From: Candidatus Peregrinibacteria bacterium
Lineage (GTDB): Bacteria; Patescibacteriota; Gracilibacteria; Peribacterales; Peribacteraceae
DNA: 64,000 nucleotides
Direction of reading: 5' to 3'
NCBI GenBank assembly: GCA_043814035.1
Contig: JBDRKJ010000007.1
Coordinates: 128,100 to 192,099, forward strand
The position numbers and the translations under genes were made by a program. Shown here piece after piece: positions 1-17,636 of the stretch (position 1 is the first letter of the stretch; every line of letters starts with the position of its first letter). Under the pieces are notes generated by a model. It was not told the DNA's origin, ran no database searches, and saw nothing but the letters and a program-made list of their open reading frames with translations.

Positions 1-1071
1 GGTATCGGAGCCGGTGTTCTTGCCCTTGGTGGGACGGGGGTGGGATATCTTGCAACTAGAGAGCCACGAGGATTTGATCTTGAAGAAGAAAAAACAGAGG
101 AAGATATTTGGGAAGGTATGCCTGAAATATACAAAGGGCAGGAAAAAATGTGGGAAGACCTCGGCCCTGACGGACGAAAGAAGATGCGCAAACAAATGAG
201 TGGATGGAAAAAAGAAGGGGTAGTGGATACAAAAGGCATGTCAACGGAAACAGGGGGAGAAATGGCAAAAAAGGAACCAGAAGGTTGGTGGGCATGGGCG
301 AAAGAACAAGCTGGCGAAAAGCTATATTGGCCCGATTTGGTCGCACGTGTTTCGGCTCCTGCTGCAACAGAAATCGTTCTGCGAGTGCTTCAGCACATCC
401 GAAGGAATAACTCACGAGAACGAGCAGAGCAGTACTCGCGAACCGAATTGGGCGATGATAAAAATCGCAATAGATATCACGGTTCCCCCTATGATGACAT
501 ACCTCTTGAGTCGCTGAGTTCGACTCAATTGCACAAACTGCGTGAAGAAGTATTGAGTTCCAAACGAAAATTCCGCAGGGAAACGAAAACTGTTGAGAGG
601 AAGATTGTAACCGAAAGAACTGTGGCATACTCGGCCATCGCTGCCGTAGAATTAATCACGAACCTAACGTATGCTGGCCTGATTTCAGAACAAATGGTTG
701 CCAATATTGTGGGAGGATGTCTCGGTTATGGAACAGTCAAACTTGGGCGAGTGTTCGCTAGCGCATCTGAAGACACTATCGAAGACGAACTTGATAAAGT
801 TGTGACAGACATCGATGACATCTTGCCGACTGTCAAAGAGCGCGAGGAGCATGCATCGCGCACAGAAAAAGCCGCGGAAGAGAAAGGAAAAAGAGATGAG
901 CTAAGAGGTGAGACTCAGGAAGAGAAGAAACTCGAACGACGGGAGGCACGTAGGGATGCAACGATAGCTCACAAACGCGAATTAGCGCGACTGGAGAAAC
1001 AGGCCGAGCTTGAGGCAAAGAAGAACGCACCAAAAATCGCAAAACCTGGAGACCCTGAATGGAAAGGATGA
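1..1071 (+). CDS. Hypothetical membrane-associated Lys/Glu-rich protein; 5' end lies outside the window
   Basis: Frame 1 is open from base 1 (GIGAGVLALGGTGVGY, hydrophobic) to the stop at 1069-1071. The listed start at 40 is a GTG inside this open frame. There is a hydrophobic segment mid-protein and a charged coiled-coil-like tail (EEKKLERREARRD...). No family recognised. Confidence 0.5.
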   Translation, partial: GIGAGVLALGGTGVGYLATREPRGFDLEEEKTEEDIWEGMPEIYKGQEKMWEDLGPDGRKKMRKQMSGWKKEGVVDTKGMSTETGGEMAKKEPEGWWAWAKEQAGEKLYWPDLVARVSAPAATEIVLRVLQHIRRNNSRERAEQYSRTELGDDKNRNRYHGSPYDDIPLESLSSTQLHKLREEVLSSKRKFRRETKTVERKIVTERTVAYSAIAAVELITNLTYAGLISEQMVANIVGGCLGYGTVKLGRVFASASEDTIEDELDKVVTDIDDILPTVKEREEHASRTEKAAEEKGKRDELRGETQEEKKLERREARRDATIAHKRELARLEKQAELEAKKNAPKIAKPGDPEWKG

Positions 1072-1114: not shown

Positions 1115-2062
1115 CTATGGAATCGGCACACCTCTGATAAAGTTCCATCCCTGTACGACGTAACTCCACGCTTTAGGAAACATCCCAAAGTATGTTTGTA
1201 CTCCTGCAGCCCCCCATCCGAGATACGCTGCACCGGCACCGAGAGCAACGAGAGCTCCCACTGAAGTGACAGTGCTAATCGGTTTGGTAAGAACGGACCA
1301 TCCTCCCTTCAAGCTTCCTGCCAGTACCTTTTGTGTAGTAAGGAAAGGAATCGTGGCGGTCCCGACAACTAATTGCATGGCAGCTTCAATAGTACCTTTC
1401 AGAAAATTCATGCCCATTTTTAATCCTTTTATTCCCGTCTCTTTTGTCCACTTCAGTGCTCCTCCTACACGCTCCGAAACATACTCCACTGCCCGAGCGA
1501 GCCTGTTCCCTTTTTCTTCTTCCGTTACCTCACCCGTCAGACCTTGTTTGATATTGTGCCCAACTATCAGGGCGCCAGAAACAGGCGCGGAGACAGTTCC
1601 GGCTAATACATCCAATGACTTTGATGCTCCACCTGTTACAACAGCTCTGGGGATTTCATACATCTGTCCTATTCCCGGTATTTTTGAAACCGTCGCGCGT
1701 GCGAGTTTATCGCCAATGTAGAGAGTGCCGGCAGCAACAGGATTTGCAGCTACCGCCCCCCAGAAGAGCAAGTTCCCTAATGGGCGTCGTACTGTATCGT
1801 GAGTAACGCGCCAGATCGCAGAATTGGCTCCCGGCTGAACGCGTTCCTGATCCTTAGGTGCAACAACAGGATTCGAGAATCCTTCCTTCGGTGTTTCGGA
1901 GGGAATTTTTCCAGAAGCAGGCGCCTTGGGACTCTCTTTTTCTTTTCCGCGCTCCGCATCTTCACCTTTATGCTTTTTTTCGCCTTCTCCAGCGGAAGGT
2001 TTCTCCTTTTCTGGACTTGAAGGCTCGCGTGGCTCTGCCTCTGGTGTCGAGGTGTTTGGCAT
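1115..2062 (-). CDS. Hypothetical membrane protein with a disordered Pro/Glu/Lys-rich N-terminus and Gly/Ala-rich hydrophobic segments
   Basis: 315-aa ORF starting 7 nt after the stop of the upstream giant ORF, so probably the same operon. The C-terminal segment VTSVGALVALGAGAAYLGWGAAGV looks transmembrane. No family recognised. Confidence 0.55.
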   Translation of the reverse strand: MPNTSTPEAEPREPSSPEKEKPSAGEGEKKHKGEDAERGKEKESPKAPASGKIPSETPKEGFSNPVVAPKDQERVQPGANSAIWRVTHDTVRRPLGNLLFWGAVAANPVAAGTLYIGDKLARATVSKIPGIGQMYEIPRAVVTGGASKSLDVLAGTVSAPVSGALIVGHNIKQGLTGEVTEEEKGNRLARAVEYVSERVGGALKWTKETGIKGLKMGMNFLKGTIEAAMQLVVGTATIPFLTTQKVLAGSLKGGWSVLTKPISTVTSVGALVALGAGAAYLGWGAAGVQTYFGMFPKAWSYVVQGWNFIRGVPIP

Positions 2063-2068
2063 TGATGG

Positions 2069-5000
2069 TTAAGGGAGTTTGCTGGCTCTTTCTGTATCTT
2101 TCACTCCATTCCAAACTTCCAAGAACTGTTGGAATGTGACGAGCCTTTCTCGCTCTTCAAGATACTGATCAAGCAGGCGAGCTTCGTGAACAGACAAGTG
2201 GAGTGGACGATGTTGCTCCTTCTCGGGAATGGAATAGCTTGTCAGCATTCCACGAAGAAAGACTTCGCCGAGCACCACGTTCTCAAGATATCGCTCGTAA
2301 GATGACCGAGCAGCCGCCTCCGTATTCTCTTTGAGACATTTTTGGTAGGTCGGATCACGATCGATCCGCCGCTTGAGCCACTGATCAGCAGAAACTTTCA
2401 TGGCCCTATACTCTGCATCCCCAACAAGCCAATTGAATGGAAGAAAGAAGATTTTTGAATCTTGCGGAGTGAGAGCTTTTAGCAAATCGGAACGACGCCC
2501 TGCACTACCGGCAACTGATAGGATCTCTGAATCAATGTTATTTGGTGCTGCGGCAGCGCCGGGCACCGTCAACAGCTTGTCGAATTCAATTGCAACAGGA
2601 GGATCTATTCCTTTTTCGAGCAGGGCCTCAAGATCTCTTTGGGCAGTCACTAATACTTGTTCAGCTGTTGCAAGTGCAGCAGAGGCATTTGTTGCTTTGG
2701 TTTCGGCTGCTGGTATTCCCACTATCTGTGGGGTGATCACATTTAGTTTCGCAACAATCACCGTAAGGCGCTGATTCATTTCTCGTGCCTTCTTTTGATC
2801 GTTTGGATCAAGTGATGCAACGAGTGGAGGAAGTAATACGAGAAGGCTGGCCTGTTCCTGCGAGAGAGATGTTTTTTCCTGCTCAAGAGATTTGAGACGA
2901 GAAAGATTCGCGTGTTCCTGTTCGTTATCAACTTTTCGTCGATCACGATCTGTTTCTGCCCCTCGTAATGTACCTTCTAAAGTTGACTTGTTTCTATCAA
3001 ATGTTTGAATTGCAGTAAGAAGAGCAGGATTTTTTGTAATTTGGCTGTAGAGATTTGTAGTGAGCACCTCAAACACATATCTCTTCTGTGCCGGCTTGAG
3101 TGCTTTGAATTTTTCTTCTGTATCTATGTCTACATCGAAGAGCTTCTTAGCAATTTCCACCTGCCATTTGACCAGCGACTCTCTTACTTTATCTTCACTG
3201 ATGATGGCACCCGCAGCATCCGTAAATTTGAGAATATTCGTGCGTCGAATGCGAGTTCTCTCAAATGCACTGATAGTTGCAGTCGGAGCCAACACATCGC
3301 GAATGGGATAGTTCCCACCACTAAACATACTCACCAAGGATTGCTCCTCCTCTTTGTATTGCTCATTAGCTTTTTCAAGATTTAATTCTTCAAACTGATG
3401 CCCAAATACACGGCCTACACTTTCAAGGAAGGGCTCTATGTAATCATGCAACAGAGGAACGGTAAGCATGTAATCGTAAATGCCCTTCAATTCCTCGAAT
3501 GTGCGACCAGCTACATTAACTGTTCCTTCAAACACAAACCCGATCACGCCGGGTGTCACTTCCACTACCGTCATACCAATCTTGGAGCCGGTATCGATGA
3601 CGAACTTCCATGCGGTGATGAAGTCATCTTTTACTTCGGGGCCAAGCTTGGCTCCCGTCACACGCATCCAGTCCCATACAGCTTCAGCCGAATTGAATAC
3701 TGCATCTTTGCTTGCCTCGTAGATCTCCGGAACTTTGTGGATACCCTGCTTCATCATCACCCACGCCTGCGTGCCGTATTTCTTTACCAGCGCGGCGGCC
3801 TCTGTATACGTGTAGCCGAACATATCCGCAGCAGCTTCGAGGTAGTTTCTATTCTCGAGCATCTCTTTGGTCGGCATCTGACACTCCGACATGATCACCT
3901 CGAACATCGTGGCGGGCTTTAAGTTCGCAGCACGATTCACGACGTAGCGCTGTCGGATGGTATCTGCGCCTTGTTCGGCATTCGTATCGACGTTGCCGCC
4001 GGCAAGCCCATTGATGCGTGCCACGTCGCCACAGAGTGCTTCGAAGGCAAAGTACGCCACCTTATAGGCTTTCTCTTTGGAGCCGGTAGAGCCGAGGTTA
4101 TCTTCGATGTCTGAGACACGCAGCGACGCAGGTGCGCCGAGTGCGAACTTTTTTCCACCACCGGACTTCACGGCCTCGCGCCATGCGAGGAGCTCCTCTA
4201 CCTTCACCGGATGTTTCTCATCCATGAGAACGCGGATGGCCGCCTGACCAGAGGGCTGCATGAGCATTTCGTATCGCTCATCGAGCGCGGCACCACGTCG
4301 ACGGAAAGCCTCAAGCGGGGACGTGCGGTCCTCCTTATTCTTCCAGCGCATGTTCTCGCCGAGCAAGTCGCGGCCTGTGCGCTGTTTTACAATGTGATTG
4401 ACACCCAAGAGGATCGGAAGACCGAGAAGGAGGAACTTCCCCTTCTTGCTCTTCCACGCCTCCCTAATCATCCAGTAGGCAGCGAAAGCGATGGCGATGA
4501 CCTCGGCCTTACCGACCATGTCGGTATTCCAGAGATCCTTCATCGACTCCAGCCCCGTACGGAGCCATCGGTCTACGGGATTTGTGAACTCATCTTCATC
4601 TTCGATTTGCTCTTTGGCTCTGATACTGCCGCGCATCTCGAAGAGGAGTCGCTTCTGTATGACATCCACCGCCATGCGCGCGTCAGTTACCGTCACCTTC
4701 TCGGTGCGGCCCTGATGCTCGTATGTCTGTTCTGCCCCTGTCACAAAAGCATCGAGGAACGCCTTCTTCGCAGGACCGTTCTCCAGTGCGATCTCGAGAG
4801 AAGCGCGCACCTGTTCGGGAGGATCCATGAGCCAGCGACCCACGTTCGCCGCCAGATTGATGGCAGGGTTCGCAGGATCCGGTTCCTGACGCAGGAGATC
4901 GAGTGCACGCGGCTTGAGTAGGAGTCCGCGCTGGCGCAGGGGACCCACGATGTCTCTGCCCTCCTCATTCTCGACAAGCGCACGTGCATCGGTATAGGAC

Positions 5001-7675
5001 AGGAACGCATCTCTGTCGGCCGGGTGCTCGGCAATCCATGTATCGACGAATGCATCCTGCCGTTCGGGTGTCACGAGTGCCGCAGTCTTCTGCAACAGTT
5101 CTTTTGCTTCATTGAGGCCCTTCTCGGGATCACCCTTGGTATCCTTATACTTGAGCATGGACATCCAGAGCGTGAGCTGACGTAGCCGCTTCGAACGCAT
5201 GCTCCAGCCCATCGTATTGAGCTGGCCGATCACGTACTGGTTGGCCATGAGCAGCGCACGGGCCTGTTCTTGGTGCTCCAGCGGGGAGACTGCGGGATCA
5301 CCGCGGATAGCTTTGAGTTGAGCTTCTCTGCGACCGCGCAGACCATTTTCTGTGGTTTCGAGGAATTTCTGCGCTCCCGAAGAGGCCGTCTGTAGCTTCT
5401 CGAGCGCGGCCTTGCCACCCTCCAGAGCTGTCTGCTGGTTGAGAAGTTTCAGCAGATCGGCATCATGTTCCGGATCCCAGAAATTCTTACGGATTCCCGC
5501 GATGTAATCCCACCATATGCTCCCGCCCGCTTTGGCGAGCTTCCAGAATTCGGAGGCATGGTTCCCGACGGATTCCTTCCACGTAACCTCGTGCACCTTT
5601 GCCGTGCGCATCTTCGTGTAGATATCCATCGGCTTGCTTCCGGCCGCGACTGGGAGCTCGTTAAGCTGCTGGATGAGAAGCCCCCTGTTGACCAAATATG
5701 TACCATCTGTCTGATGCAGCAGGGGCCCGCCTACGGCCTTGAATTCCGCAAGCTTCTTTTTTGCCTCCTTGTCAGCCTCAGCTCCATTGCCATCAAAATG
5801 CAGGAATGTGAGGTACTCGAGCAGCAGGCCACCGTCATTCTTGAGCTTGAAACCGGTTCCCGAGCCTGTGGGCTCCGTCACGCTTTCGACGATTGCCGTG
5901 GCACTCTCCCTTCCTAGGAAGCCTGCTTCATCGACATCTGTTTCGACCGTGAGCGTCCCCATTCTCGTCATCAGCGCATCCTCATTTGGAATAAGATAAA
6001 ATTTATTGTCTGGACCGAATACCTGGATGAGACCTGCCTTCAGAAAATCGGCGATATCTCGCTCGGCCAATCCACTTGCCACTACACCTCCCTTCGCTGT
6101 GTGAATTTTTTCAAGTGCCTTTTTTAGATTTTCAACAGACACCTTGAGGCTGGCAGCTACAATGCGATCGATATCAGGACTGAGTGCCAATATCGCTTGT
6201 GGTTTGCCCAACGGCACTTCTTTCTTCTTTGTGCCAAACCGCTCCATCTTCGCGACGGAGACCAATACACTGGGGCTCGGACGGTAGTTGCCGTCCTCCA
6301 GCGTCTTCACCACATCCTCCGGCATGCGTGCGCGCAGTGCCAATGCCGAAAGTGAAATGCCCGTGGGATTGTCGATTTTTACGCCTTCGCTCCTGAGGTA
6401 ATCCTCCGCCTTTCCGGTATTCCACAGGCTCAAAAGATCGCGGGAGAAATCGTCGATGGAAACCGTTGCGGATGGGACCGTCTTCTTCAATTCTGTTTCC
6501 GACTTCGCACGGTCCGCCTCTACGGCTTCTCTTCCGCCTTTGAGGATGGCGAGGATGAGTTTCTTGATTTCATTGTCGTCCTTGATCTTGTACTTCTCAC
6601 GGATTTTCTTCACCTGAACGAGATCCGCCAGCACGATGGCACCCTTCAGCCCGAGGGATTCCTCGAGCACATCCTTCTGTGGACCGGTAAGCTTGGCCTT
6701 CTTCAGAATCTCCAGCCGCTGAATGAGCGCATCCAATCTGAACTTACCATTGCGCTCGACTGACAGATGAATGAGCGCCTCCTGATCCGTTCCACCGAGG
6801 CGGTCTAAGTAACGGACACGCTCCTGAAATTCGTCCTGAATGTGTTTCTGCTGATCGATCTCCATGGCCGCCAGCTTGGTATCGATGGCTTTGATGGCCG
6901 CATCCACCTTCTCGCGCTCATCCGCAGTCAGAAGCTCGATACCGCCGGTCTCGCGGACGATCTTGAGCAACGCTGAACGGCGCGCAGTCGGTTCGGTGGC
7001 ATCGATGTACGGCTTGAGCCTGTCCTCGGAAATACCGGCAGCGGTCAGCTTCTTTTTCCACGGGTCTACTTTCTGGATTTCATCATCGGTTGCCCAGAGG
7101 ATGTCTTTGAGAAGATCAACCAGCTGGTCGAAGCGCTTCTTAAATGTGTCGAAATCCGCCTTCTTCTGGAGCACTCCGTTCAGTGATGCGTCGAATCCCG
7201 GAAAATCCCCCTCCCCTCCAGCATCTCTGTAGGCCTTTTCCTGCGCCTTCAGTTCATCGATCGTCACCTGCAGAATCCGAGCGCACTCTTTCGCATTGAC
7301 TGTAGACTTGTCCTTGGCCGCATTGATGGCCTGTCCCTCGCCGGTGAATACTTCGCCGCTCTTCTGCAGGAATGATAGAGCAATGGCAGTGAGCCACTTC
7401 TTTGATTTGTTCCCCGGAAGCAATTCCACCTGCGATGCGATCATTTTCACCGTCTCCTTATCCGCGAGCATCTCATTGATCTTGGGATCATTCAGCGTTC
7501 TCGCAGCTTCACGGAGTGCGGCAGCGGCCTCGGTAAGTCCGGGCCCCAGCTTCTCTTGGTCCTGCCGTATTTTCTCGCCACTGCTCACCCCTGGCTTCTC
7601 GGGACCATCTTTGAAAATAAGCCGCGCTTCACGTAGGTCATCAGGGCCAAATATCGGAAAGAGTTTTTGTGTCAT
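2069..7675 (-). CDS. Giant (1868 aa) orphan protein, mostly helical/charged, with a central two-helix hydrophobic hairpin
   Basis: Uninterrupted 5.6-kb ORF. No N-terminal signal peptide, and no Walker A or other catalytic motif seen. Two adjacent hydrophobic helices (AEVIAIAFAAYWMI ... KFLLLGLPILLGV) are encoded around 4390-4515. TGGTACAAT lies 11 nt upstream of the ATG. Confidence 0.8.
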   Translation of the reverse strand: MTQKLFPIFGPDDLREARLIFKDGPEKPGVSSGEKIRQDQEKLGPGLTEAAAALREAARTLNDPKINEMLADKETVKMIASQVELLPGNKSKKWLTAIALSFLQKSGEVFTGEGQAINAAKDKSTVNAKECARILQVTIDELKAQEKAYRDAGGEGDFPGFDASLNGVLQKKADFDTFKKRFDQLVDLLKDILWATDDEIQKVDPWKKKLTAAGISEDRLKPYIDATEPTARRSALLKIVRETGGIELLTADEREKVDAAIKAIDTKLAAMEIDQQKHIQDEFQERVRYLDRLGGTDQEALIHLSVERNGKFRLDALIQRLEILKKAKLTGPQKDVLEESLGLKGAIVLADLVQVKKIREKYKIKDDNEIKKLILAILKGGREAVEADRAKSETELKKTVPSATVSIDDFSRDLLSLWNTGKAEDYLRSEGVKIDNPTGISLSALALRARMPEDVVKTLEDGNYRPSPSVLVSVAKMERFGTKKKEVPLGKPQAILALSPDIDRIVAASLKVSVENLKKALEKIHTAKGGVVASGLAERDIADFLKAGLIQVFGPDNKFYLIPNEDALMTRMGTLTVETDVDEAGFLGRESATAIVESVTEPTGSGTGFKLKNDGGLLLEYLTFLHFDGNGAEADKEAKKKLAEFKAVGGPLLHQTDGTYLVNRGLLIQQLNELPVAAGSKPMDIYTKMRTAKVHEVTWKESVGNHASEFWKLAKAGGSIWWDYIAGIRKNFWDPEHDADLLKLLNQQTALEGGKAALEKLQTASSGAQKFLETTENGLRGRREAQLKAIRGDPAVSPLEHQEQARALLMANQYVIGQLNTMGWSMRSKRLRQLTLWMSMLKYKDTKGDPEKGLNEAKELLQKTAALVTPERQDAFVDTWIAEHPADRDAFLSYTDARALVENEEGRDIVGPLRQRGLLLKPRALDLLRQEPDPANPAINLAANVGRWLMDPPEQVRASLEIALENGPAKKAFLDAFVTGAEQTYEHQGRTEKVTVTDARMAVDVIQKRLLFEMRGSIRAKEQIEDEDEFTNPVDRWLRTGLESMKDLWNTDMVGKAEVIAIAFAAYWMIREAWKSKKGKFLLLGLPILLGVNHIVKQRTGRDLLGENMRWKNKEDRTSPLEAFRRRGAALDERYEMLMQPSGQAAIRVLMDEKHPVKVEELLAWREAVKSGGGKKFALGAPASLRVSDIEDNLGSTGSKEKAYKVAYFAFEALCGDVARINGLAGGNVDTNAEQGADTIRQRYVVNRAANLKPATMFEVIMSECQMPTKEMLENRNYLEAAADMFGYTYTEAAALVKKYGTQAWVMMKQGIHKVPEIYEASKDAVFNSAEAVWDWMRVTGAKLGPEVKDDFITAWKFVIDTGSKIGMTVVEVTPGVIGFVFEGTVNVAGRTFEELKGIYDYMLTVPLLHDYIEPFLESVGRVFGHQFEELNLEKANEQYKEEEQSLVSMFSGGNYPIRDVLAPTATISAFERTRIRRTNILKFTDAAGAIISEDKVRESLVKWQVEIAKKLFDVDIDTEEKFKALKPAQKRYVFEVLTTNLYSQITKNPALLTAIQTFDRNKSTLEGTLRGAETDRDRRKVDNEQEHANLSRLKSLEQEKTSLSQEQASLLVLLPPLVASLDPNDQKKAREMNQRLTVIVAKLNVITPQIVGIPAAETKATNASAALATAEQVLVTAQRDLEALLEKGIDPPVAIEFDKLLTVPGAAAAPNNIDSEILSVAGSAGRRSDLLKALTPQDSKIFFLPFNWLVGDAEYRAMKVSADQWLKRRIDRDPTYQKCLKENTEAAARSSYERYLENVVLGEVFLRGMLTSYSIPEKEQHRPLHLSVHEARLLDQYLEERERLVTFQQFLEVWNGVKDTERASKLP

Positions 7676-7722
7676 AAAATCTCACTATTGTACCAAAAAT
7701 CGCGTTTTTCTTCAATGGAGCC

Positions 7723-10062
7723 CTAAAGCCTTCGCTTAAGCCAAAGTAGAGACACCCCCACGCTCGAAAGTACCCCCAAAACGCCCATTTCGGGTATGGA
7801 GGATTGCTGGCGGTCTTCGCCCGTCACCGTCAGAGAGTCGGGTAATTCGGTCTCCACGAAGGTCATGAGGAGGGAACCGGATACAGAGGAAGGAAAAGAA
7901 AGAGAAGAAATAGAGGATCGGGACGCCGAGACATAGCGAGTCCGTGAGAATGCGGGCGCTGCCGCGGCGACGGATTTCTTTGCGCTCGCGATGGATGAGA
8001 CTGGTAATGGCAGAGTTGTCTGACACGTATTGGGTAACCCGGGCGTGGGATCGGAGGTTCTCCATTCCCCGTTGCAAAAACTCAACGACGTTCCTGCTTT
8101 GAGTTTCGGAATCGTAACGTGATCGGACCATGAATTATCGGGCGCAATCAGCCACACGTCATCGCCTGTATCGTTGAGGGCGAGCTTCGTATCATCCCGC
8201 GAAAATATGCGATACGCGCCAGCTGCAATCGTTGTACTCGAAGGAATAATAAATGGCTTGCTCCCACCTCCGCTCCTGGCGGAGCTACGGTGGGCAAGAC
8301 CGCCTTCACGGAGGTCATCGAGTATCCAGCCAGCCAAAGAAATTTCGTGATCGGTCGAATTGAAAAGTTCGATCCACTCATCGCCGGTCATCATCACTTC
8401 ACTTAAAACAGCACCCGTCTCAACGAGAGCAGAGGCGGAAGACGAAAAAGAAGAAATAGAGGAAGTAAAAGAAATAGAGGAGGAAGAGGAGACAGAAGAA
8501 AAAGAGGAAAGAGAAGATGAAGAAGCAGAAGATTTCGAGGAGCTGGATTGTGGTTGTTCTTTCGGAAGCACGGTCACGTTGAGAGTGCTTACTGAAATGC
8601 CTCCGCAGAAGTCACGCACCGTCAGACGCACCGTGTAATCACCGGGGTCCGAGAATGTGTGTGACGGCGGATTGCAGGCACTGCTCACTGCATCATCGCC
8701 GTAGTCCCACGTGCATACGGCGGAAGCGAGGGAACCGGCTCCGGCAGCGGCTTGCAGGTTGATCGACACGTGCTCCTCGCCCACGACAAATGCGCTGCCA
8801 ACCGAAGCCGATCCGGCATCCTGAATGAGGATGCGCGGCGCAAGTGATGCGACAACGTTTGGTTGGCCTTCGCTGGGAACGCAGAACGCATGGAGCGCGT
8901 AAGGCGGATCTTTATCGCGACCGAAACTCACCTCTTCGGCTGTCATCGGATACTCCCACGCATCGATGAGTTGTGAACCGTTCATCAGACTCACGCGCTC
9001 GCCGTTGTTATCGAGCGGGAGACTTGTGACGGATTTGCGAAACGACCAGTACTCGCCCGGTGCCAGAAAAAATCCGGAGCCGGATTGCGGCAGGATCGTG
9101 TACACCGCGGAGGAGTTTCCATCATCGAGCGTCCAACCGGCGATGTTCACGGAAACGGCTCCCAGATTGGCGATCTCGATCCACTCTTCAGTATCCGCAC
9201 CGATGGGATTTGCGAGAACTTCGGTGATGAAGACGGAGGGGATAGAAGAAGAAATAGAGGATGAAGAGGAAAGAAAAGAAATAGAGGAGAGCGAGGATGC
9301 GGATGACACGCTGCTCACGAAAGAACCGGAACCGGAGGATGACTGCACGGAACCGAGCGATGACCCTGTGGAGGAAGAGGAGGAAACTGAAAATGCCGAG
9401 GAAGCCGAAGATGCCAAGGGGGGAGAAGAGTCACGCAAAAATCCCGGCGTGCCGAAGATGGGCGCACCTTCTTTGAATCCGAGTGACAGAGTTGCCGTCT
9501 GCCAGTTCTCGGCAATATTGCCCGGCACCGCAAGATCGATGCGCTCCATACTGGCTTTGGGTAAGCCAGAAACATTTGCGCCGGCGAAGGGGCTACCCAC
9601 GCCGTCATCCACTTCATCGCGGACCACACCGTCGGCATCATAAAGCCGCAGGAGCAACTTGGTATTCGGCAGGCTCATCGACGGCGTTGTGATCCACGGC
9701 TCTGATAAAAGCCGCGAAGACGCCGCCGGATAGTTGCTCACAACGCGTACGTCACCGGCCGGGAGCATCGCACCCGTTTGGAACGTGTGAATCACGGCTT
9801 CCTCACCCGTGCTCTTTGAGCTCGTGAGAGTCCAGCCACTCAAATCGCAATCGCCTACTCCTGTGCATACGATCTCGACCCACTCATCGGACGTAGATAC
9901 ATCCGATCCCATCCACATCACTTCACTGATCACTACCGAACCGGCCGCGGCCGCCTCATCCGCGAAGACCCTGTGTGCAGGAAGACCCGAACACACGCAG
10001 AGCAGCGCTCCTGCAGGGAGCAGGTACGCGAGAAGCCGATGCAGTACTGTGCAGGTTTTCAA
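7723..10062 (-). CDS. Secreted/anchored surface protein: three lamin-tail-domain (LTD)-like repeats, one PKD-like domain, Ser-rich linkers, C-terminal hydrophobic anchor
   Basis: N-terminal signal-like LLAYLLPAGALLCVCSG. LTD-type motifs occur three times (VISEVMW...DEWVEIV...LSGWTL; ITEVLANP...EEWIEIANLG...IAGWTLDD; LSEVMMTGDEWIELFN...LAGWILDD). The PKD-like stretch is WDYGDD...HTFSDPGDYTVRLTV. The tail is IPEMGVLGVLSSVGVSLLWLKRRL. The start codon is TTG, so the start is uncertain. Confidence 0.75.
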   Translation of the reverse strand: MKTCTVLHRLLAYLLPAGALLCVCSGLPAHRVFADEAAAAGSVVISEVMWMGSDVSTSDEWVEIVCTGVGDCDLSGWTLTSSKSTGEEAVIHTFQTGAMLPAGDVRVVSNYPAASSRLLSEPWITTPSMSLPNTKLLLRLYDADGVVRDEVDDGVGSPFAGANVSGLPKASMERIDLAVPGNIAENWQTATLSLGFKEGAPIFGTPGFLRDSSPPLASSASSAFSVSSSSSTGSSLGSVQSSSGSGSFVSSVSSASSLSSISFLSSSSSISSSIPSVFITEVLANPIGADTEEWIEIANLGAVSVNIAGWTLDDGNSSAVYTILPQSGSGFFLAPGEYWSFRKSVTSLPLDNNGERVSLMNGSQLIDAWEYPMTAEEVSFGRDKDPPYALHAFCVPSEGQPNVVASLAPRILIQDAGSASVGSAFVVGEEHVSINLQAAAGAGSLASAVCTWDYGDDAVSSACNPPSHTFSDPGDYTVRLTVRDFCGGISVSTLNVTVLPKEQPQSSSSKSSASSSSLSSFSSVSSSSSISFTSSISSFSSSASALVETGAVLSEVMMTGDEWIELFNSTDHEISLAGWILDDLREGGLAHRSSARSGGGSKPFIIPSSTTIAAGAYRIFSRDDTKLALNDTGDDVWLIAPDNSWSDHVTIPKLKAGTSLSFCNGEWRTSDPTPGLPNTCQTTLPLPVSSIASAKKSVAAAAPAFSRTRYVSASRSSISSLSFPSSVSGSLLMTFVETELPDSLTVTGEDRQQSSIPEMGVLGVLSSVGVSLLWLKRRL

Positions 10063-10540: not shown

Positions 10541-12097
10541 ATGGACTACACCATTGTGTTCCTTGCACTCCTCGCCGGGTGCGGTGTCGGTTTACTCGCT
10601 GGCTGGTTCTGGTTTAACAAAGGCAAACATGTCAGTGCTTCGTTGCAGACCGAGATCAACAAGAAAGAGCAAGAGATCGAGAAGCTGAAACTGCACATCG
10701 GGCAGGCGCAGAGTCAGATTAAAACCGCCGAAGTCGAAGCCCGCGCGATTGCCAAAGAGATCGTCTCGGATGCGAAAGCACAGGCAACCGAATCGGATGC
10801 GAAGATCGAGAAGGAGCAAGGCAGGCTGGAGGAAAAAGAAAGGACGCTCGACGAAAAAGTTCGCGAGCTGGAGCGTCAGCGCGAAAACATCGCCAAGCAG
10901 GAAGAAGAGGTAGTTGTACTCAAGACGGAACTGGTCACTGCGAGTGCGAAGCATCGCGAAGCACTCGAAAAAGTCGCCAAGCTCACGCAGGATCAAGCGA
11001 AGGAGCAACTTAAAGAAGAGCTCGTTCATGAGTTCTCGGATTTCTTCGCCGGGCAGGCCAAGCTCGTACGCAAGCAATTCAAAGAAGAAGCTGAGGAGGA
11101 AGCGAAGAATCTGCTCGCCGAGGCCATGCAGCGCTTCGCCTCAGAAGTGGCAACGGAATCCACCGCCACGGTGGTGCAGCTGCCTTCTGACGATGTGAAA
11201 GGCAAGATCATCGGCAAAGAGGGGCGCAACATCACGGCATTCGAAGCGGCAACCGGCGTCGATATCATCATCGACGACACACCCGGCGCCATCGTGATCT
11301 CGGGTTACGATCTGGCCCGACGCTACGTGGCCAAGCTTGCCATGGAGAAGCTCATCAAAGATGGACGCATTCAGCCGGCACGCATTGAGGAAGTCGTGAA
11401 CAAGATGAAAGAAGAAGTCGGAAAGATGATGTTGGAATTCGGCAAGCGCGCTACAGAAGAACTCGGCATTGCCAATTATCCGCAGGACCTGCTCAAGATC
11501 ATCGGGCGCCTGCGCTTTCGCACCAGTTACGGCCAGAACGTACTCAAGCACTCACTCGAGATGGCCAACATCGGCAAGATGCTCGCCGAGGAAATCGGCG
11601 CCGATGCGAATGTGGTAGCGGAAGGATGTTTGCTCCATGACATCGGCAAAGCACTCGACCACGAAGTTTCGGGAACGCACGTGGAAATCGGCATCGAGAT
11701 CGCACGCAAGTTCAAGGTGCGACCCGAGGTACTGCACTGCATTGCCTCCCACCACAACGATGTGCCGATCGAATCGCCCGAAGCCTTCATCGTCGCGGCA
11801 GCGGATGCCATTTCGGGGGCACGACCGGGAGCACGTCGCGAGTCGTTCGAGGCCTACGTGCGCCGACTCAAGGAACTCGAAGAAACAGCCAAAGGATTCG
11901 AAGGTGTAAAGCGTGCCTTCGCCATCTCTGCCGGGCGCGAAGTACGCGTGTATGTGGATATTGAGAAGATCGACGATCTGGGACAAGAGCGGCTGGCCAA
12001 AGACATCGCCCAGAAGATCGAGAAGGAACTGACATACCCAGGCGTGATCAAGGTGAACGTCATCCGTGAGCGACGTATAGAGGAAACAGCAAAGTAA
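10541..12097 (+). CDS. rny: Ribonuclease Y
   Basis: N-terminal TM helix, long coiled coil, KH motif (GKIIGKEGRNI), HD domain (LLHDIGKA ... ASHH). 518 aa is typical. Confidence 0.95.
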   Translation: MDYTIVFLALLAGCGVGLLAGWFWFNKGKHVSASLQTEINKKEQEIEKLKLHIGQAQSQIKTAEVEARAIAKEIVSDAKAQATESDAKIEKEQGRLEEKERTLDEKVRELERQRENIAKQEEEVVVLKTELVTASAKHREALEKVAKLTQDQAKEQLKEELVHEFSDFFAGQAKLVRKQFKEEAEEEAKNLLAEAMQRFASEVATESTATVVQLPSDDVKGKIIGKEGRNITAFEAATGVDIIIDDTPGAIVISGYDLARRYVAKLAMEKLIKDGRIQPARIEEVVNKMKEEVGKMMLEFGKRATEELGIANYPQDLLKIIGRLRFRTSYGQNVLKHSLEMANIGKMLAEEIGADANVVAEGCLLHDIGKALDHEVSGTHVEIGIEIARKFKVRPEVLHCIASHHNDVPIESPEAFIVAAADAISGARPGARRESFEAYVRRLKELEETAKGFEGVKRAFAISAGREVRVYVDIEKIDDLGQERLAKDIAQKIEKELTYPGVIKVNVIRERRIEETAK

Positions 12098-12353: not shown

Positions 12354-15300
12354 ATGGTCTCGAAACGCACAGTTATCCTTGGGGTATTTTCCTTAAGCGT
12401 CGCGGCAGCTTTTGTCGGAACGCTCTGGAACCTGCAGGGAAATACCTTCCAGGGGCAAGTCGTCTCAGGAACATCGCAGGTCATTGATGATGGCGATGCG
12501 GGATTTAGTACATCCGGTCAAGGATGGCAGCGCTTTCAGCACTCTCTGGGATACAGAGGAGACATCATGGCTCCGTCGAAGGTGACAGATTCCTCGCTCG
12601 CTGCCACATGGACATTCTCAAATATGGCGGCCGGGCAGTACAAGTTCTACGTCACCTTCAAGGCCTACAGCCTGCTCACGAATAAAGCACCCTACACCAT
12701 CAAAGATGGATCATCGACACTCGGATCGACGACAGTGAACCAGAAGACCGATCCCACGGGCAACTTGTACGATGGAAAAAACTGGTCATTGCTCGGCATG
12801 TACACAGTGAAAGGGCCGACGGTCTCGATCACACTCTCTCGCCCACAGGATCTCACGGTGAACGGCATGATTGCGGATAGCGCTCGTATCGAACGCGTTA
12901 CGGCTCCGGCAGAAACGTTTGGGTTGCTCCCTGCTGCAGGGCTAGCTGAAGGGCAAGGTGGTTGCCGTGCGGGATTCACGCTCGTTGAGGGATACAACTA
13001 TCCTTACATTACGTGTCTAGCTTTCTGCGGGGACGACATCTGCAATACCGCCGAATACTATCAGTACAGTGGATCAACTGCCTGCTGCAAGTGTGGACCC
13101 AGTCTGTGGTGCGCTTCTTCGTCTTCCCGCTCCTCTACACCGGGAGCGACATCTTCACTCTCCTCTACACCGGGTGCAGCATCTTCGCGTTACTCTACAC
13201 CCGGAGCGACATCTTCGCGTCCTGCACAGAGCTCGGCAATGAGTAAGCCATCGACTGGAGGCTCTTCTGCGTTCGCTTCTAGTTTGCCGGATGCTGAGGT
13301 TCTTCCGCCTAACCAGCTGCAGTATCCCGGTCAGCAATGCCCCCCTGGAACGATCCCCGATTGTCCCACTCCTAATTATTGCGAATGTAAGCCGTTCCCC
13401 TGCCCGCCTGGAACGATCCTCGATTGCAATCCTAGTGGTTGCGACTGTAGGCCGCTCTCCTGCCCGGATGGGTTTTACGTCGACCACAATACTGGTATCT
13501 GCATGCCCGTCTCAGTGTGCGGCGATGGCTACGTCGAACCGCAAGGGCGACCGATTGAGCTCTGCGAAACCGGCACGAACGAAGGATGTGCTCCGGGTCG
13601 CACGTGTCAGGGGTGTACCCGCTGCGGGCTCTGTGGCGACACCTTCATCGATCGCTCCGAGACCTGTGAGGCCGACTACTCCTGCGCGAGTGGAAGTGCT
13701 TGTCAGGATTGTCAGTGCACGACATCGACCACGCCCCTCACGGCGAACATGACTTCTGCACTCGATAGTGCTAGCCCCGGTTTCTCGACGTACACCTCTC
13801 CGTACAATACGACGGTCCTCTCGTGGACCCTCGCCATTCAACCACAGAGCATGTACGACGTGTACGTCAAACTGAAGCGGGCTTACAGCGATCCCTGTCC
13901 CATCCGTAGCTACTGGCGCGTCTACGACGGGAGCCGACAGGTGCACACGCTCACCATCAATTATGGGAATTACGTCTGCACGACATGGCCGGGAACCAAC
14001 GTGCAGGGGACACAGGAGGCGTGGGTGAACATCGGTAGTGTCGTGGCATCTTCCTCTTCCCTGCGCATCGAACATGCACCGCCTCCGCCACCGGAGGGGC
14101 AGCAGCCGGCAATTACTACTTTCCAGCCAACTGCCGTGCGCGTCGTGAAACAATTCAACATCGTCGATCCCGCTCCTCTTGGCGTCACGCTCATCGACAA
14201 CGGTGATCTGGGATTCCGTACCTTGGTAGGCACGTGGGAAGAACGTCAGTTCCCCATGCCCGATGCCTGGTCCATCGGTCCCGTGACGAATCCCCTCTTC
14301 GACGACGACATCGCCCTGCAATACATTAACAGGGGTGATCCTTCGCCAACTTCGAGCTGGAGCTTTACGGTCGCCCCTGGTAGCTACCGCGTACTGGTGA
14401 CGTTCGCCAAGCTCTCTCCAGTCAACTTCGTCAATAAGAACGCCATATACTCCGTGCGCAACGGCAACCAGGCCGGACCAGAGCTTGGCCGCGTGACAGT
14501 CGATCACTCCTATCCTCCCAATGGCCCGATGTACCGCTTCGTATCGTGGAAAGATCTGGGCACCTACACCGTCACCGGTAACCGCCTCTCGGTCGTGCTC
14601 ACGAATCCCTACGGTCTCAGTTCCGATGCCGTGCGCATCGAGAAGATCGGCGGCGCCAGTTCCTCGGCACAATCGTCCTATTGGAGCTCCGCTTCGTCAC
14701 AGGGTCTCACTTGTTCTTCGCTGCCCTGGTTGCAGTGTGCATCCGGATTCCAGTGTCTTGCACAGTGCATCAATGGTGACTGTGCTGGTGTTGATACCCT
14801 CGGCTGCCCGCCCGGGACGGTGTCTCAGCGTAATGGAACGTGCGGTAATGACCTTTGTCACAATGAGTGTGAGCGGTGCGTCCCTGTTGCCTCGTCTTCG
14901 CGCTCATCCGCCAGCTCTCAACAGTGGTTTGGGTGTTCGGGCAGTTTCAAATGCAATGTCGCATGGGCAAACAACCAGTGTGCTCGCCTCTCCATCGACT
15001 GCTCTCCCGGTACGCAACTTGTCTGTGACGCCCCCTGTGGTTCTGCCTCCTGTGGTGGAGAGTGCTGCAGGTGTGCGAGTGTTGCATCGTCGCGTTCCTC
15101 TGCCTCATCGGTCGTCGCCTGTGCGAACGAGGGCGAAGTGGTTTCCGAGGGGAACATGCGACCCTGCTGCGATAGCCTGAAATCGATTCCGTTCATACAG
15201 CCCGATGCGAGCAATCAATGTTTCAACATATCGCTCAACAGCATTTGCACGCGATGTGGCAACGGCCAGTGCGGAACAGGAGAGAACTTCTGTAATTGCA

Positions 15301-17612: not shown

Positions 17613-17636
17613 TTCTTCTTTTTCCATAGTTCTCTG

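What the first reader, a model, noticed from the sequence alone, without database searches (positions are those of the whole stretch)
1115..10062. Orphan three-gene envelope operon: 3xLTD+PKD surface protein, 1868-aa giant with a central TM hairpin, Gly-rich membrane protein
Three minus-strand genes are packed head to tail, with gaps of 47 and 6 nt.

1. The first gene is exported and has three lamin-tail-domain-like repeats plus a PKD-like domain on Ser-rich stalks.
2. The second is a 5.6-kb ORF. It has no signal peptide, no nucleotide-binding or catalytic motif that I can find, and long charged helical stretches. Its only membrane element is a two-helix hairpin in the middle (about 4390-4515). 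That predicts two ~800-1000-aa cytoplasmic arms tethered to the membrane.
3. The third has a disordered N-terminus and glycine-zipper-like helices.

I recognise no described secretion, adhesion, division or defence system with this composition. It is my best candidate in this window for an undescribed envelope-spanning apparatus. The partial convergent gene at 1-1071 has a similar Lys/Glu-rich style and may belong with it.
Basis: partly seen in the sequence, partly recalled or inferred. Interest (0 to 1): 0.7.

Follow-up and report, generated by a model that had tools for sequence, protein, structure and literature searches.

The report
Orphan giant protein module of Peribacteria
A 1868-residue protein with no recognisable relatives outside one group of ultra-small (CPR) bacteria sits with a small partner gene that is swapped together with the giant's tail end between lineages; the three genes are real, but they are not one operon and their function is still unknown.

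Summary
The three minus-strand ORFs, the 47- and 6-nt gaps, the 3xLTD+PKD architecture and the hydrophobic helix pair at giant residues 1053-1100 are all present as described. The organism is a Candidatus Peribacteraceae bacterium (Peregrinibacteria, CPR).

The giant has no hit in Pfam, NCBIfam, PHROGs, PADLOC or PDB sequences. It has no Walker motif. Two AlphaFold models gave no meaningful Foldseek match (TM-score 0.1 or less). An exhaustive profile search found about 64 cluster representatives, nearly all 1500-2350 aa.

New findings:
- The giant has its own conserved extended -10 promoter in the 47-nt gap. Relatives carry toxin-antitoxin genes between the LTD gene and the giant. The LTD gene is therefore most likely a separate transcription unit.
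- The giant's C-terminal tail comes in two unalignable classes. Each class is tied in 16 of 16 loci to its own downstream gene set. The classes are interleaved on the core tree, and breakpoints lie inside the gene.
- The "TM hairpin" is conserved but only marginally hydrophobic, and its loop is basic. The two-cytoplasmic-arms topology is unproven.

Verdict: this is a real, lineage-restricted giant-plus-partner module that cannot be classified. The "envelope-spanning three-gene apparatus" reading is only partly supported.

The parts
7723..10062 (-). Gene 1: exported, C-terminally anchored surface protein (779 aa) with 3 LTD domains and 1 PKD domain on Ser-rich linkers. It is a conserved neighbour of the giant and probably a separate transcription unit.
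   Evidence: LTD1 is at window 9607-9954, LTD2 at 8950-9249, PKD at 8569-8790 and LTD3 at 8113-8409. The signal-like segment covers residues 9-29 and the C-terminal anchor residues 756-776. Orthologues were found in 12 related loci; two distant ones also carry an SNase domain.
7687..7715 (-). Promoter-like element TTGAAG-17 nt-(TG)gTACAAT. It ends 11 nt upstream of the giant's ATG, which implies a near-leaderless mRNA.
   Evidence: scan; sequence. It is conserved almost base for base in L001, L004, L006, L007 and L019, and is recognisable in L016-L018 and L020. This includes loci where other genes are inserted upstream.
2069..7675 (-). Gene 2: giant protein of 1868 aa, the founding member here of an uncharacterised Peribacteria-restricted family.
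   Evidence: There are 13 close homologues and about 64 representatives at 50% clustering, with no family, PDB or fold match.
7601..7675 (-). Conserved N-terminal peptide of the giant (residues 1-25, ...LREARLIFK; family-wide [FS]xExRLxF). It is disordered in the model.
   Evidence: The same motif is present at the N-terminus of the class-B ~290-aa partner proteins.
5636..7570 (-). N-terminal arm (residues 36-680): helical bundles, the conserved NPxG[IV]S...LR..[LM]P block (about residues 436-476), then small alpha/beta domains (residues 480-680).
   Evidence: AF2 model 2, with pLDDT mostly 75-92. Only sub-threshold HTH_31/HTH_3 hits were found, and a PDB profile search was negative. This arm is itself exchanged by recombination.
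4520..5608 (-). Conserved core, pre-hairpin helical domain (residues 690-1052).
4376..4519 (-). Conserved hydrophobic helix-loop-helix (residues 1053-1100). Helix 1 has a ~14-residue apolar run. The loop is basic (WKSKKGK). Helix 2 has a 16-residue apolar run with a conserved G[IL]P motif. It is followed by the near-invariant KQRTGRDLLGEN.
3476..4375 (-). Conserved core, post-hairpin helical domain (residues 1101-1400). This is the most conserved part of the family and includes the near-invariant Cys1215.
2072..3475 (-). Class-A C-terminal tail (residues 1401-1868). It diverges fast and is co-inherited with the downstream small gene.
1115..2062 (-). Gene 3: class-A partner (315 aa), with a disordered Lys/Glu/Pro-rich N-terminus (MPxxSTPEAEP...) and Gly/Ala-rich weakly hydrophobic helices. 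It starts 6 nt after the giant's stop codon.
   Evidence: It lies directly downstream of a class-A giant in 9 of 9 class-A loci. It is only 28-41% identical to its counterparts, even in the closest relatives.
40..1071 (+). Convergent gene (partial; its N-terminus lies outside the window). Fast-diverging counterparts follow the small gene in class-A loci and carry twin-arginine-type signal peptides.

Best explanation
The locus is two units, not one operon.

Unit 1 is an LTD/PKD surface protein. It is exported by a signal peptide and held by a C-terminal anchor. It is transcribed on its own.

Unit 2 starts at a conserved, near-leaderless promoter inside the 47-nt gap. It encodes a Peribacteria-specific giant, mostly alpha-helical, multi-domain protein, followed by a translationally close small Gly/Ala-rich partner protein.

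The giant is modular:
- a conserved N-terminal peptide;
- an exchangeable N-terminal arm;
- a conserved core built around a short hydrophobic helix pair, which most likely attaches the protein to the cytoplasmic membrane;
- a fast-diverging C-terminal tail.

The tail exists in two classes. Each class always comes with its own downstream gene set: class A with one ~300-aa protein, class B with ~850-aa and ~290-aa proteins. Tail and partner are moved together between lineages by recombination.

The most likely working model is that the conserved core is the membrane-attached body and the tail is the docking surface for its cognate partner protein(s). The fast-evolving tail-plus-partner pair would be the part under diversifying or conflict-type selection, for example at the cell envelope or the cell-cell interface of these probably symbiotic bacteria.

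Shown here: gene structure, promoter conservation, family range, modular mosaicism, and the link between tail class and partner type.
Inferred: membrane attachment, physical tail-partner contact, and any envelope or host-interaction role.
For: Family and orphan status:
- Homologues are named only as Peribacter, Peribacteraceae or Peregrinibacteria.
- An exhaustive HMM search gave 67 hits, nearly all giants with the core in the middle.
- No Pfam hit in 24 distant or 14 close members.
- No NCBIfam, PHROG, PADLOC or PDB-sequence hit.
- Foldseek against PDB and BFVD gave only generic long-helix matches with TM 0.05-0.1.

Separate transcription unit:
- The promoter TTGAAG-17-TGgTACAAT is conserved next to the ATG in loci with and without inserted genes.
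- TA pairs or small ORFs lie between the LTD gene and the giant in L001, L004, L007, L018, L019 and L021.

Giant plus partner:
- The gap is 6-21 nt in class-A loci.
- Tails form two BLAST-unconnected classes, 20 and 44 representatives.
- Tail class matches the downstream gene set in every locus typed: window, L004, L009, L012, L015, L017, L019, L020 and L021 are class A; L001-L003, L006, L007/L008, L016 and L018 are class B.
- Classes A and B are interleaved on the core tree.

Mosaicism:
- P0001 vs P0002 identities are N-arm 79, core 79, tail 51, partner 28%.
- P0002 vs P0005 identities are N-arm 45, core 77, tail 77, partner 86%.

Rates:
- Where RNase Y is 86-89% identical, the core is 58-81%, the tail 34-51% and the partner 34-41%.

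Helix pair:
- It is conserved in character across 35 diverse members.
- It is the most conserved region of the alignment.
Against: - Membrane attachment is not demonstrated. The helix pair scores far worse than true anchors in the same window, has low pLDDT of 53-63, and its basic loop contradicts the simple N-in/C-in hairpin.
- No direct evidence shows that tail and partner touch. A mirror-tree style correlation over nine class-A loci was no stronger for tail-partner than for core-partner.
- The region between the giant and the carbamoyl-phosphate synthase gene also collects TA, MNT/HEPN and HicB genes. Part of the variability may simply reflect a recombination hotspot.
- No expression or proteomic data were available.
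Confidence: 0.45

Rival explanations
1. Polymorphic effector or toxin-like system. The giant would be released or delivered to another cell. Its Ala/Gly-rich helix pair would be a colicin- or Bcl-2-like membrane-insertion hairpin that is buried in the soluble state. The swappable C-terminal tail plus downstream genes would be the effector/immunity-type cassette.
For: - Cassette-like co-swapping of the C-terminal tail and downstream genes, with breakpoints inside the gene.
- Very fast divergence of the tail and partner.
- No signal peptide.
- Marginally hydrophobic, Gly/Ala-rich helix pair with a basic turn.
- TA modules cluster around the locus.
- One of 14 members gave a sub-threshold Pre-toxin TG hit (E 0.14).
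Against: - No toxin, pre-toxin, Rhs, LXG, colicin or secretion domain was detected in any of 38 members scanned.
- Only two ancient tail classes exist, rather than many.
- The 'immunity' candidates are 300-890 aa and Gly-rich.
- The gene is single-copy at a fixed chromosomal site in every locus seen.
- The helix pair and its flanks are the most conserved part, not an accessory.
- No secretion system is in the window.
Confidence: 0.15
2. The LTD/PKD surface protein, the giant and the Gly-rich protein would form one envelope-spanning apparatus made from a three-gene operon. The giant would be held by a TM hairpin with both ~800-1000-aa arms in the cytoplasm.
For: - LTD protein and giant are adjacent, in the same orientation, in all loci that reach far enough, down to ~25-35% core identity.
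- The LTD protein ends in a membrane anchor.
- The helix pair is conserved.
Against: - The giant has its own conserved promoter, and a relic of the LTD 3' end is left behind where genes were inserted.
- TA genes or ORFs separate the two genes in six loci.
- The entire neighbourhood is collinear, so adjacency is uninformative.
- LTD similarity follows the core, not the tail class.
- The charge pattern disfavours the N-in/C-in hairpin.
Confidence: 0.15
3. Bitopic variant. Only helix 2 would span the membrane. The first ~1080 residues would then be cytoplasmic, and the conserved post-hairpin domain plus the variable tail would be extracellular, where the tail and partner would meet the environment or host.
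For: - The loop before helix 2 is basic, net +2.5.
- Helix 2 is the more hydrophobic of the two and has fewer charged residues.
- Extracellular exposure would explain the rapid tail divergence.
- Two Cys residues are invariant in the close family within the post-hairpin domain.
Against: - The C-flank is also basic, net +2.2.
- The tail has no Ser-rich linkers or Cys-rich repeats, which are typical of this lineage's exported proteins (PMC4736985).
- The second Cys is not conserved in distant members.
- The partner has no signal peptide.
Confidence: 0.12
4. Soluble cytoplasmic scaffold, either nucleoid-associated and SMC-like or cytoskeletal. The helix pair would be a buried core element, and small HTH or winged-helix-like domains would bind nucleic acid.
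For: - The top Foldseek PDB hits are JetC, MukB, PrgA and SMC5/6 (E 5e-5 to 3e-2).
- Sub-threshold HTH_31/HTH_3 hits fall at a conserved block.
- The hydrophobicity is marginal.
Against: - TM-scores are 0.05-0.08 with rmsd above 45 A, which marks generic long-helix matches.
- There is no Walker A/B motif or ATPase head.
- A PDB profile search of the HTH-like block was negative.
- The partner proteins are Gly/Ala-rich and hydrophobic.
Confidence: 0.08

Closest known systems
Bacterial LTD (lamin-tail domain, PF00932) / PKD surface proteins, including LTD-nuclease fusions
   Same: Gene 1 has three LTD domains above threshold and one PKD domain, a signal peptide and Ser-rich linkers. Orthologues in L016 and L018 add a staphylococcal-nuclease domain. 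This is the usual bacterial context of LTD (own knowledge of the Pfam family description).
   Different: The window copy has no nuclease or other catalytic domain. Its link to the giant is positional only.
Polymorphic toxin / effector-immunity loci (Rhs, CdiA, LXG and similar)
   Same: Both have a large protein with a conserved body and an exchangeable C-terminal end that travels with the gene(s) immediately downstream. Both show recombination breakpoints inside the gene.
   Different: No trafficking, pre-toxin or toxin domain was detected. There are only two tail classes, each ~470-690 aa. The downstream proteins are large and Gly-rich. The locus is single-copy and universal at a fixed chromosomal site.
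Pore-forming colicins / Bcl-2-type helical hairpin proteins
   Same: Both are long helical proteins without a signal peptide that contain one short Ala/Gly-rich hydrophobic helical hairpin of marginal hydrophobicity.
   Different: There is no sequence or fold match. Here the hairpin is central and flanked by ~700 conserved residues. There is no receptor or translocation domain and no lysis gene.
SMC-family proteins (MukB, JetC, Smc5/6) and other long coiled-coil scaffolds (EzrA, PrgA)
   Same: These are the best-ranked Foldseek targets, and they share a long helical architecture.
   Different: TM-scores are 0.05-0.1. There is no ATPase head, hinge or Walker motif. The similarity is that of any long helix.
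Large cysteine-rich extracellular proteins of Ca. Peribacter riflensis (PMC4736985)
   Same: They come from the same lineage, are large, and are strain-variable. Two such genes lie next door in the window (12354-21053).
   Different: The giant has 4 Cys in 1868 residues, no signal peptide and no DUF4215 or Golvesin repeats. It is a different family.

Membership tests
LTD (PF00932) surface protein | LTD domain(s) scoring above Pfam's gathering threshold | tested here: met
   Three separate segments score 48.9, 54.7 and 43.1 bits against a cut-off of 34.3. The whole protein scores 135.8 bits.
PKD domain protein (PF18911/PF00801) | PKD domain above threshold | tested here: met
   PKD_4 scores 45.8 bits (cut-off 27) and PKD 31.2 bits (cut-off 23.5).
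Single three-gene operon | No internal promoter, and uninterrupted gene order in relatives | tested here: not met
   A conserved promoter lies in the 47-nt gap. Genes are inserted between the LTD gene and the giant in six relatives. The giant-to-small-gene junction (6-21 nt, no promoter) does fit co-transcription.
Integral membrane protein with TM hairpin | Two helices hydrophobic and long enough to span the membrane, with flanking charges that obey the positive-inside rule for N-in/C-in | tested here: inconclusive
   Apolar runs are ~14 and 16 residues. Crude insertion sums are +7.3 and +8.5, against -1.2 for the RNase Y anchor. The loop has net charge +2.5 over 35 members. pLDDT is 53-63. 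No dedicated topology predictor was available.
Polymorphic toxin system | Recognisable N-terminal trafficking domain or pre-toxin/toxin domain | tested here: not met
   No Pfam family at E<=0.01 in 24 distant members. In 14 close members there are only sub-threshold hits.
Polymorphic toxin system | Variable C-terminus that is exchanged together with the downstream gene(s) | tested here: met
Polymorphic toxin system | Small cognate immunity protein that neutralises the C-terminal domain | not testable with these tools
   The downstream proteins are 285-890 aa and of unknown function. A neutralisation test needs experiments.
SMC / MukB / JetC | ABC-type ATPase head with Walker A and B motifs | tested here: not met
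   No G....GK[ST] or hhhhD[DE] motif. No SMC Pfam or NCBIfam hit.
Dynamin-like / mitofusin / atlastin membrane-hairpin GTPases | GTPase domain with P-loop | tested here: not met
   No P-loop and no GTPase family hit.
Phage tape-measure or other phage structural giant | PHROG or Pfam tape-measure match, or a phage gene context | tested here: not met
   No PHROG hit. BFVD Foldseek gave only E>=0.009 with TM<=0.1. No tblastn hit in 50,697 phage records. The neighbours are housekeeping genes.
Known anti-phage defence systems (PADLOC) | Match to a PADLOC model | tested here: not met
   No hit for the giant, the small protein, the convergent protein or the class-B partners. Only the LTD protein touches the candidate model 'SNc+LTD', at E 0.011.
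Peribacteria giant family (defined here) | Central ~700-aa core with the helix pair and the KxxTG+D/G LLG motif, in a protein of 1500-2350 aa | tested here: met

The most novel reading that the evidence does not exclude
The giant and its cognate partner(s) could be a previously unknown, Peribacteria-wide envelope or cell-contact machine. Its conserved membrane-attached core would carry one of two ancient, recombining 'specificity' modules (tail plus partner proteins). That would be a dimorphic recognition or conflict locus, for example for host attachment, self/non-self discrimination or phage exclusion, with no counterpart among described secretion, adhesion, division or defence systems.
Probability: 0.2. 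Interest if true: 0.8.

Novelty: categorically new. Interest (0 to 1): 0.55.

Why it matters
CPR bacteria make up a large share of bacterial diversity, live as probable symbionts with tiny genomes, and remain almost entirely without functional genetics.

A 5.6-kb gene is about 0.4% of a genome of ~1.3 Mb. This one is kept in every Peribacteria locus examined and matches nothing known. It is therefore likely to encode lineage-defining biology.

The two-class tail-plus-partner cassette is a concrete, testable handle. It predicts cognate protein-protein specificity. It also marks the part of the protein that is under conflict or diversifying pressure.

If that part faces a host or a phage, the locus would be a direct entry point into how these organisms interact with other cells. 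If the function turns out to be structural only, the finding still corrects the operon model and defines a new protein family with clear domain boundaries.

Tried and rejected
Family and sequence searches with no hit:
- Pfam, NCBIfam, PHROGs and PADLOC on the full proteins.
- Pfam at E up to 10 on five sub-segments of the giant. Only sub-threshold SNAP, HTH_31, WXG100 and TraP noise appeared.
- Pfam on 24 distant and 14 close members. Nothing recurred beyond 2 of 14 for SNAP and HTH_3.
- PDB sequence search with the full-length profile, and with a profile of the conserved NPxGIS...LP block that looked ParB/Xre-like by eye. The best E was 0.58, so the HTH/ParB idea is dropped.
- tblastn of the core against phage and plasmid collections found nothing.

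Structure searches:
- The first AF2 model, built from a shallow 14-sequence alignment, was poor (pLDDT 64.5), and its Foldseek run was empty.
- The second model, built from 35 diverse sequences, was better (pLDDT 78). It gave only generic long-helix hits.

Searches that added little:
- The genome-contig scan returned only close relatives, plus one odd 'Omnitrophica' contig that carries just a 224-aa fragment.
- Cluster look-up of distant members gave no names.

Profile-profile comparisons:
- Class-A against class-B tails match only over the first ~100 residues (E 1.8e-5).
- Class-A ~300-aa against class-B ~290-aa partners gave E 1.3e-4 at 54% probability. This is suggestive of remote homology but not proven.
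- All other pairs were negative.

Other tests:
- The mirror-tree correlation was not discriminating.
- The N-terminal motif was searched in all six frames of the window as a possible general sorting signal. It occurs only in the giant.

Failed calls:
- Two literature searches on LTD nucleases failed on time-out.
- One large alignment call failed.

Full report
1. What is there

The three minus-strand ORFs are exactly as described:
- 7723-10062, 779 aa, TTG start.
- 2069-7675, 1868 aa.
- 1115-2062, 315 aa.
- The gaps between them are 47 and 6 nt.

RNase Y is transcribed divergently upstream at 10541-12097. It matches TIGR03319 at 571 bits. Two Cys-rich DUF4215/Golvesin_C giants, a glycosylase, EF-Tu and other housekeeping genes follow. 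No secretion, pilus or phage genes are nearby.

Named homologues of the giant all come from Candidatus Peribacter, Peribacteraceae or Peregrinibacteria. The window is therefore from a CPR bacterium of that group.

2. Gene 1

Pfam finds three LTD domains. Each is above threshold when scanned alone:
- residues 37-152, 48.9 bits;
- residues 272-371, 54.7 bits;
- residues 552-650, 43.1 bits.

One PKD domain covers residues 425-498. A signal-like N-terminal segment, long Ser-rich linkers and a C-terminal hydrophobic anchor ending in KRRL complete the protein.

In two distant relatives the orthologue also carries a staphylococcal-nuclease domain. The window copy does not.

3. Gene 2 is an orphan, but it belongs to a sizeable family

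No hit was found in any of these searches:
- Pfam, NCBIfam, PHROGs and PADLOC.
- PDB sequences with a family profile.
- Regular-expression scans for Walker A/B, HExxH or CxxC motifs.

The word-indexed search found 13 homologues at 41-71% identity. An exhaustive HMM search with the conserved core (residues 690-1400) against 1.84 billion representatives found 67 proteins. About 60 of them are 1500-2350 aa long and have the core in the middle. Twenty-four distant members have no Pfam domain either.

Two AlphaFold2 models were made.
- The core with 14 close sequences gave pLDDT 64.5.
- Residues 1-1200 with 35 diverse sequences gave pLDDT 78 and pTM 0.38.

The second model is mostly helical. It has small alpha/beta domains at residues 480-680 and a disordered N-terminus of 35 residues.

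Foldseek against the PDB ranked JetC, MukB, PrgA and SMC5/6 first, at E 5e-5 to 3e-2. TM-scores were 0.05-0.08 and rmsd was above 45 A. Against BFVD, the named hits were mostly tape-measure and SMC-like proteins, at E of 0.009 or worse. These are the matches that any long helical protein gives. I do not read them as homology.

4. The 'TM hairpin'

The element at residues 1053-1100 (window 4376-4519) is the best-conserved part of the family. It keeps its character in 35 diverse members:
- helix 1 has an apolar, small-residue run of ~14 residues;
- the turn is W-K/Q-basic-G-G;
- helix 2 has an apolar run of 16 residues with a G[IL]P motif;
- a K..TG+(D/G)LL motif follows.

Three observations weaken the TM reading.
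- A crude Hessa-scale sum over 19 residues gives +7.3 and +8.5. The RNase Y anchor gives -1.2 and the LTD protein's signal peptide +3.4. Another segment of the giant (residues 1366-1384) scores the same as the helix pair.
- Over 35 members the loop has net charge +2.5, the C-flank +2.2 and the N-flank -0.9. A basic loop facing outward is what the N-in/C-in model requires, and it contradicts the positive-inside rule.
- pLDDT is lowest in this region, at 53-63.

Membrane association is plausible. The topology is open. It could be a hairpin, a single span through helix 2, or a buried hairpin of the colicin or Bcl-2 kind.

5. Not one operon

The 47-nt gap contains TTGAAG-17 nt-TGgTACAAT, ending 11 nt before the ATG. 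The window-wide count of promoter-like sites is not above shuffled expectation. What matters is conservation.

The block ttgaaNaaaaaSScgatttttGGTACAATAGTnnGATTTTATG is kept almost base for base in L001, L004, L006, L007 and L019. It is recognisable in L016-L018 and L020.

In L004, L007 and L018, PhdYeFM/ParE pairs lie between the LTD gene and the giant. In L001, L019 and L021, other small ORFs lie there.

In L001, L004, L007 and L019, a ~25-nt relic of the old LTD 3' end still sits just upstream of the promoter. It encodes ...WLKRRL-stop, as in the window. The LTD gene in those loci has acquired a new end.

The giant therefore starts its own, nearly leaderless, transcript. In contrast, the small gene follows the giant after 6-21 nt with no promoter in class-A loci.

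6. Synteny

The order is RNase Y (divergent), LTD protein, giant, partner gene(s), and further on carbamoyl-phosphate synthase. It is kept in every locus that reaches far enough, down to giants only 25-35% identical in the core.

The three genes are therefore syntenic. But the whole neighbourhood is collinear as well, so the adjacency of the LTD gene says little about function.

7. The new observation: a two-state tail-plus-partner cassette

After the core, the giants fall into two classes that BLAST does not connect:
- class A: 20 representatives, tail ~450-580 aa;
- class B: 44 representatives, tail ~570-690 aa.

Profile-profile comparison aligns them only over the first ~100 residues.

Class A is always followed by one ~300-aa protein of the window's gene-3 family. 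One or two convergent genes come next. The class-A loci are the window, L004, L009, L012, L015, L017, L019, L020 and L021.

Class B is always followed by a ~780-890-aa protein with its own TTGACA-17-xATAAT promoter and by a ~285-313-aa protein. The class-B loci are L001-L003, L006, L007/L008, L016 and L018.

On a neighbour-joining tree of the core, A and B are interleaved at many depths. For example, the window's giant (A) is sister to P0010 (B).

Identities show breakpoints inside the gene:
- window vs L019: N-arm 79%, core 79%, tail 51%, partner 28%;
- L019 vs L004: N-arm 45%, core 77%, tail 77%, partner 86%.

Relative rates point the same way. Where RNase Y is 86-89% identical, the core is 58-81%, the tail 34-51% and the partner 34-41%. 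The partner is no more similar in the closest relatives than in the most distant ones.

Tail and partner therefore travel together, and they diverge much faster than the body of the protein.

8. Other shared features

The giant's N-terminal peptide (...LREARLIFK; family-wide [FS]xExRLxF) recurs at the N-terminus of the class-B ~290-aa partners as SEARLLFKSG, AESRLLSK and ERRLLFKDK. Class-A partners start with a related MPxxSTPEAEP.

Both partner families share the same layout. A Lys/Glu-rich disordered stretch of ~80 residues and a GGD motif are followed by Gly/Ala/Pro-rich weakly hydrophobic helices. hhalign gives E 1.3e-4 at 54% probability over 259 columns. Remote homology is possible but not proven.

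The motif is not a general signal in this genome. In the window it occurs only in the giant.

9. The convergent gene

The partial ORF at 40-1071 has a 25%-identical counterpart in the same position in L004 and L019. Unrelated-looking but similarly placed genes occur in L015, L017, L020 and L021.

All the full-length counterparts inspected (L004, L015, L017 and L019) begin with a twin-arginine-type signal, such as SRRKFLG or SRRGFFK.

The convergent gene is part of the variable class-A region. Whether it works with the giant is unknown.

10. Interpretation

The best-supported reading, at about 0.45 confidence, has three parts:
- a separately transcribed LTD/PKD surface protein;
- next to it, a giant-plus-partner module in which the conserved core is the membrane-associated body;
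- a tail that acts as the cognate docking surface for the partner(s), with the tail-partner pair under diversifying or conflict-type selection.

Membrane attachment, tail-partner contact and any envelope or host-contact role are inferences.

The rivals are:
- a polymorphic-effector or colicin-like system (0.15);
- a bitopic topology with an extracellular C-terminal half (0.12);
- a soluble SMC-like or cytoskeletal scaffold (0.08).

None is excluded. Each has a stated refuting experiment.

11. Novelty and score

The LTD/PKD protein is an ordinary member of a known kind. The giant and its partners match no described family, fold or system. NCBI and JGI, the only sources that name any of them, label them 'hypothetical protein'.

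In that sense the module cannot be placed in any known kind. I rate it categorically new while stressing that the function is unknown.

Interest is moderate to high at 0.55. The family is real, lineage-defining and has an unusual dimorphic cassette structure. But no mechanism is demonstrated, and part of the variability may reflect a recombination hotspot that also collects TA genes.

Noticed in passing
window 12354-17612 (+) and 17637-21053 (+): Two adjacent large proteins (1752 and 1138 aa) carry DUF4215 / myxococcal Cys-rich repeats, and the first also has a Golvesin_C domain. They resemble the large cysteine-rich extracellular proteins reported for Ca. Peribacter riflensis (PMC4736985). 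Orthologues keep the same position in relatives.
   Followed up: partly
L001, L004, L007 and L019, just upstream of the giant; compare window 7723-7745: Where extra genes are inserted between the LTD gene and the giant, a ~25-nt relic of the original LTD 3' end (TTGGCTTAAGCGACGTCTTTAA, encoding ...WLKRRL-stop) remains next to the giant's promoter. The LTD gene itself has a new C-terminal end (IWFGRKWWWL-stop). The insertions therefore landed inside the last codons of the LTD gene.
   Followed up: yes
L004 8758-9871; L007 2965-3476; L018 2845-3458; also L004 18325-19971 and L019 11931-12576: Toxin-antitoxin and related small modules (PhdYeFM/ParE, MNT/HEPN-type NTP_transf_2 with HepT, HicB) recur on both sides of the giant in relatives. 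This marks the locus as an insertion and recombination hotspot.
   Followed up: partly
L016 1851-4511; L018 284-2827: The LTD-protein orthologues of distant relatives carry a staphylococcal-nuclease (PF00565) domain, suggesting an extracellular DNA-related role for this surface protein family. The window copy lacks it. PADLOC's candidate model 'SNc+LTD' touches the window protein only at E 0.011.
   Followed up: partly
window 40-1071 (+); L004 16327-17769 (-); L019 9945-11321 (-); L015 17066-19778 (-); L017 8141-10007 (-): The convergent genes that follow the small partner in class-A loci encode very fast-diverging proteins with twin-arginine (Tat-type) N-terminal signals. The window copy is truncated by the window edge, so its signal cannot be seen.
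   Followed up: partly
L001 16268-16298; L006 16022-16054; L007 9196-9283; L018 8666-8701: In class-B loci the short, AT-rich spacer after the giant holds a strong TTGACA-17-xATAAT promoter-like site immediately before the ~850-aa gene. As for the giant, this implies a near-leaderless transcript.
   Followed up: partly
L014 10001-10660 (contig MHFU01000150.1, labelled Omnitrophica bacterium RIFOXYB12_FULL_50_7): This contig carries only a 224-aa piece of the giant's post-hairpin domain (64% identity) at its very end. No upstream giant sequence, LTD gene or RNase Y is present. It is probably a chimeric or mis-binned contig rather than evidence that the family occurs in Omnitrophota.
   Followed up: partly
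window 8966-9643 (+): A 225-aa plus-strand ORF lies antisense to the Ser-rich linker region of the LTD gene. It is a shadow ORF with Glu/Ser-rich low-complexity sequence. The sign flip of AT skew at 8-10 kb coincides with this Ser-rich region and probably reflects its codon composition, not a strand switch.
   Followed up: no
giant residues 1826-1846 (window about 2138-2200): Near the C-terminus of class-A tails, a conserved 'LHLSxxEARLLxQxLEER' block repeats the EARL[LI] core of the N-terminal peptide. Whether the two ends share a binding partner is unknown.
   Followed up: no
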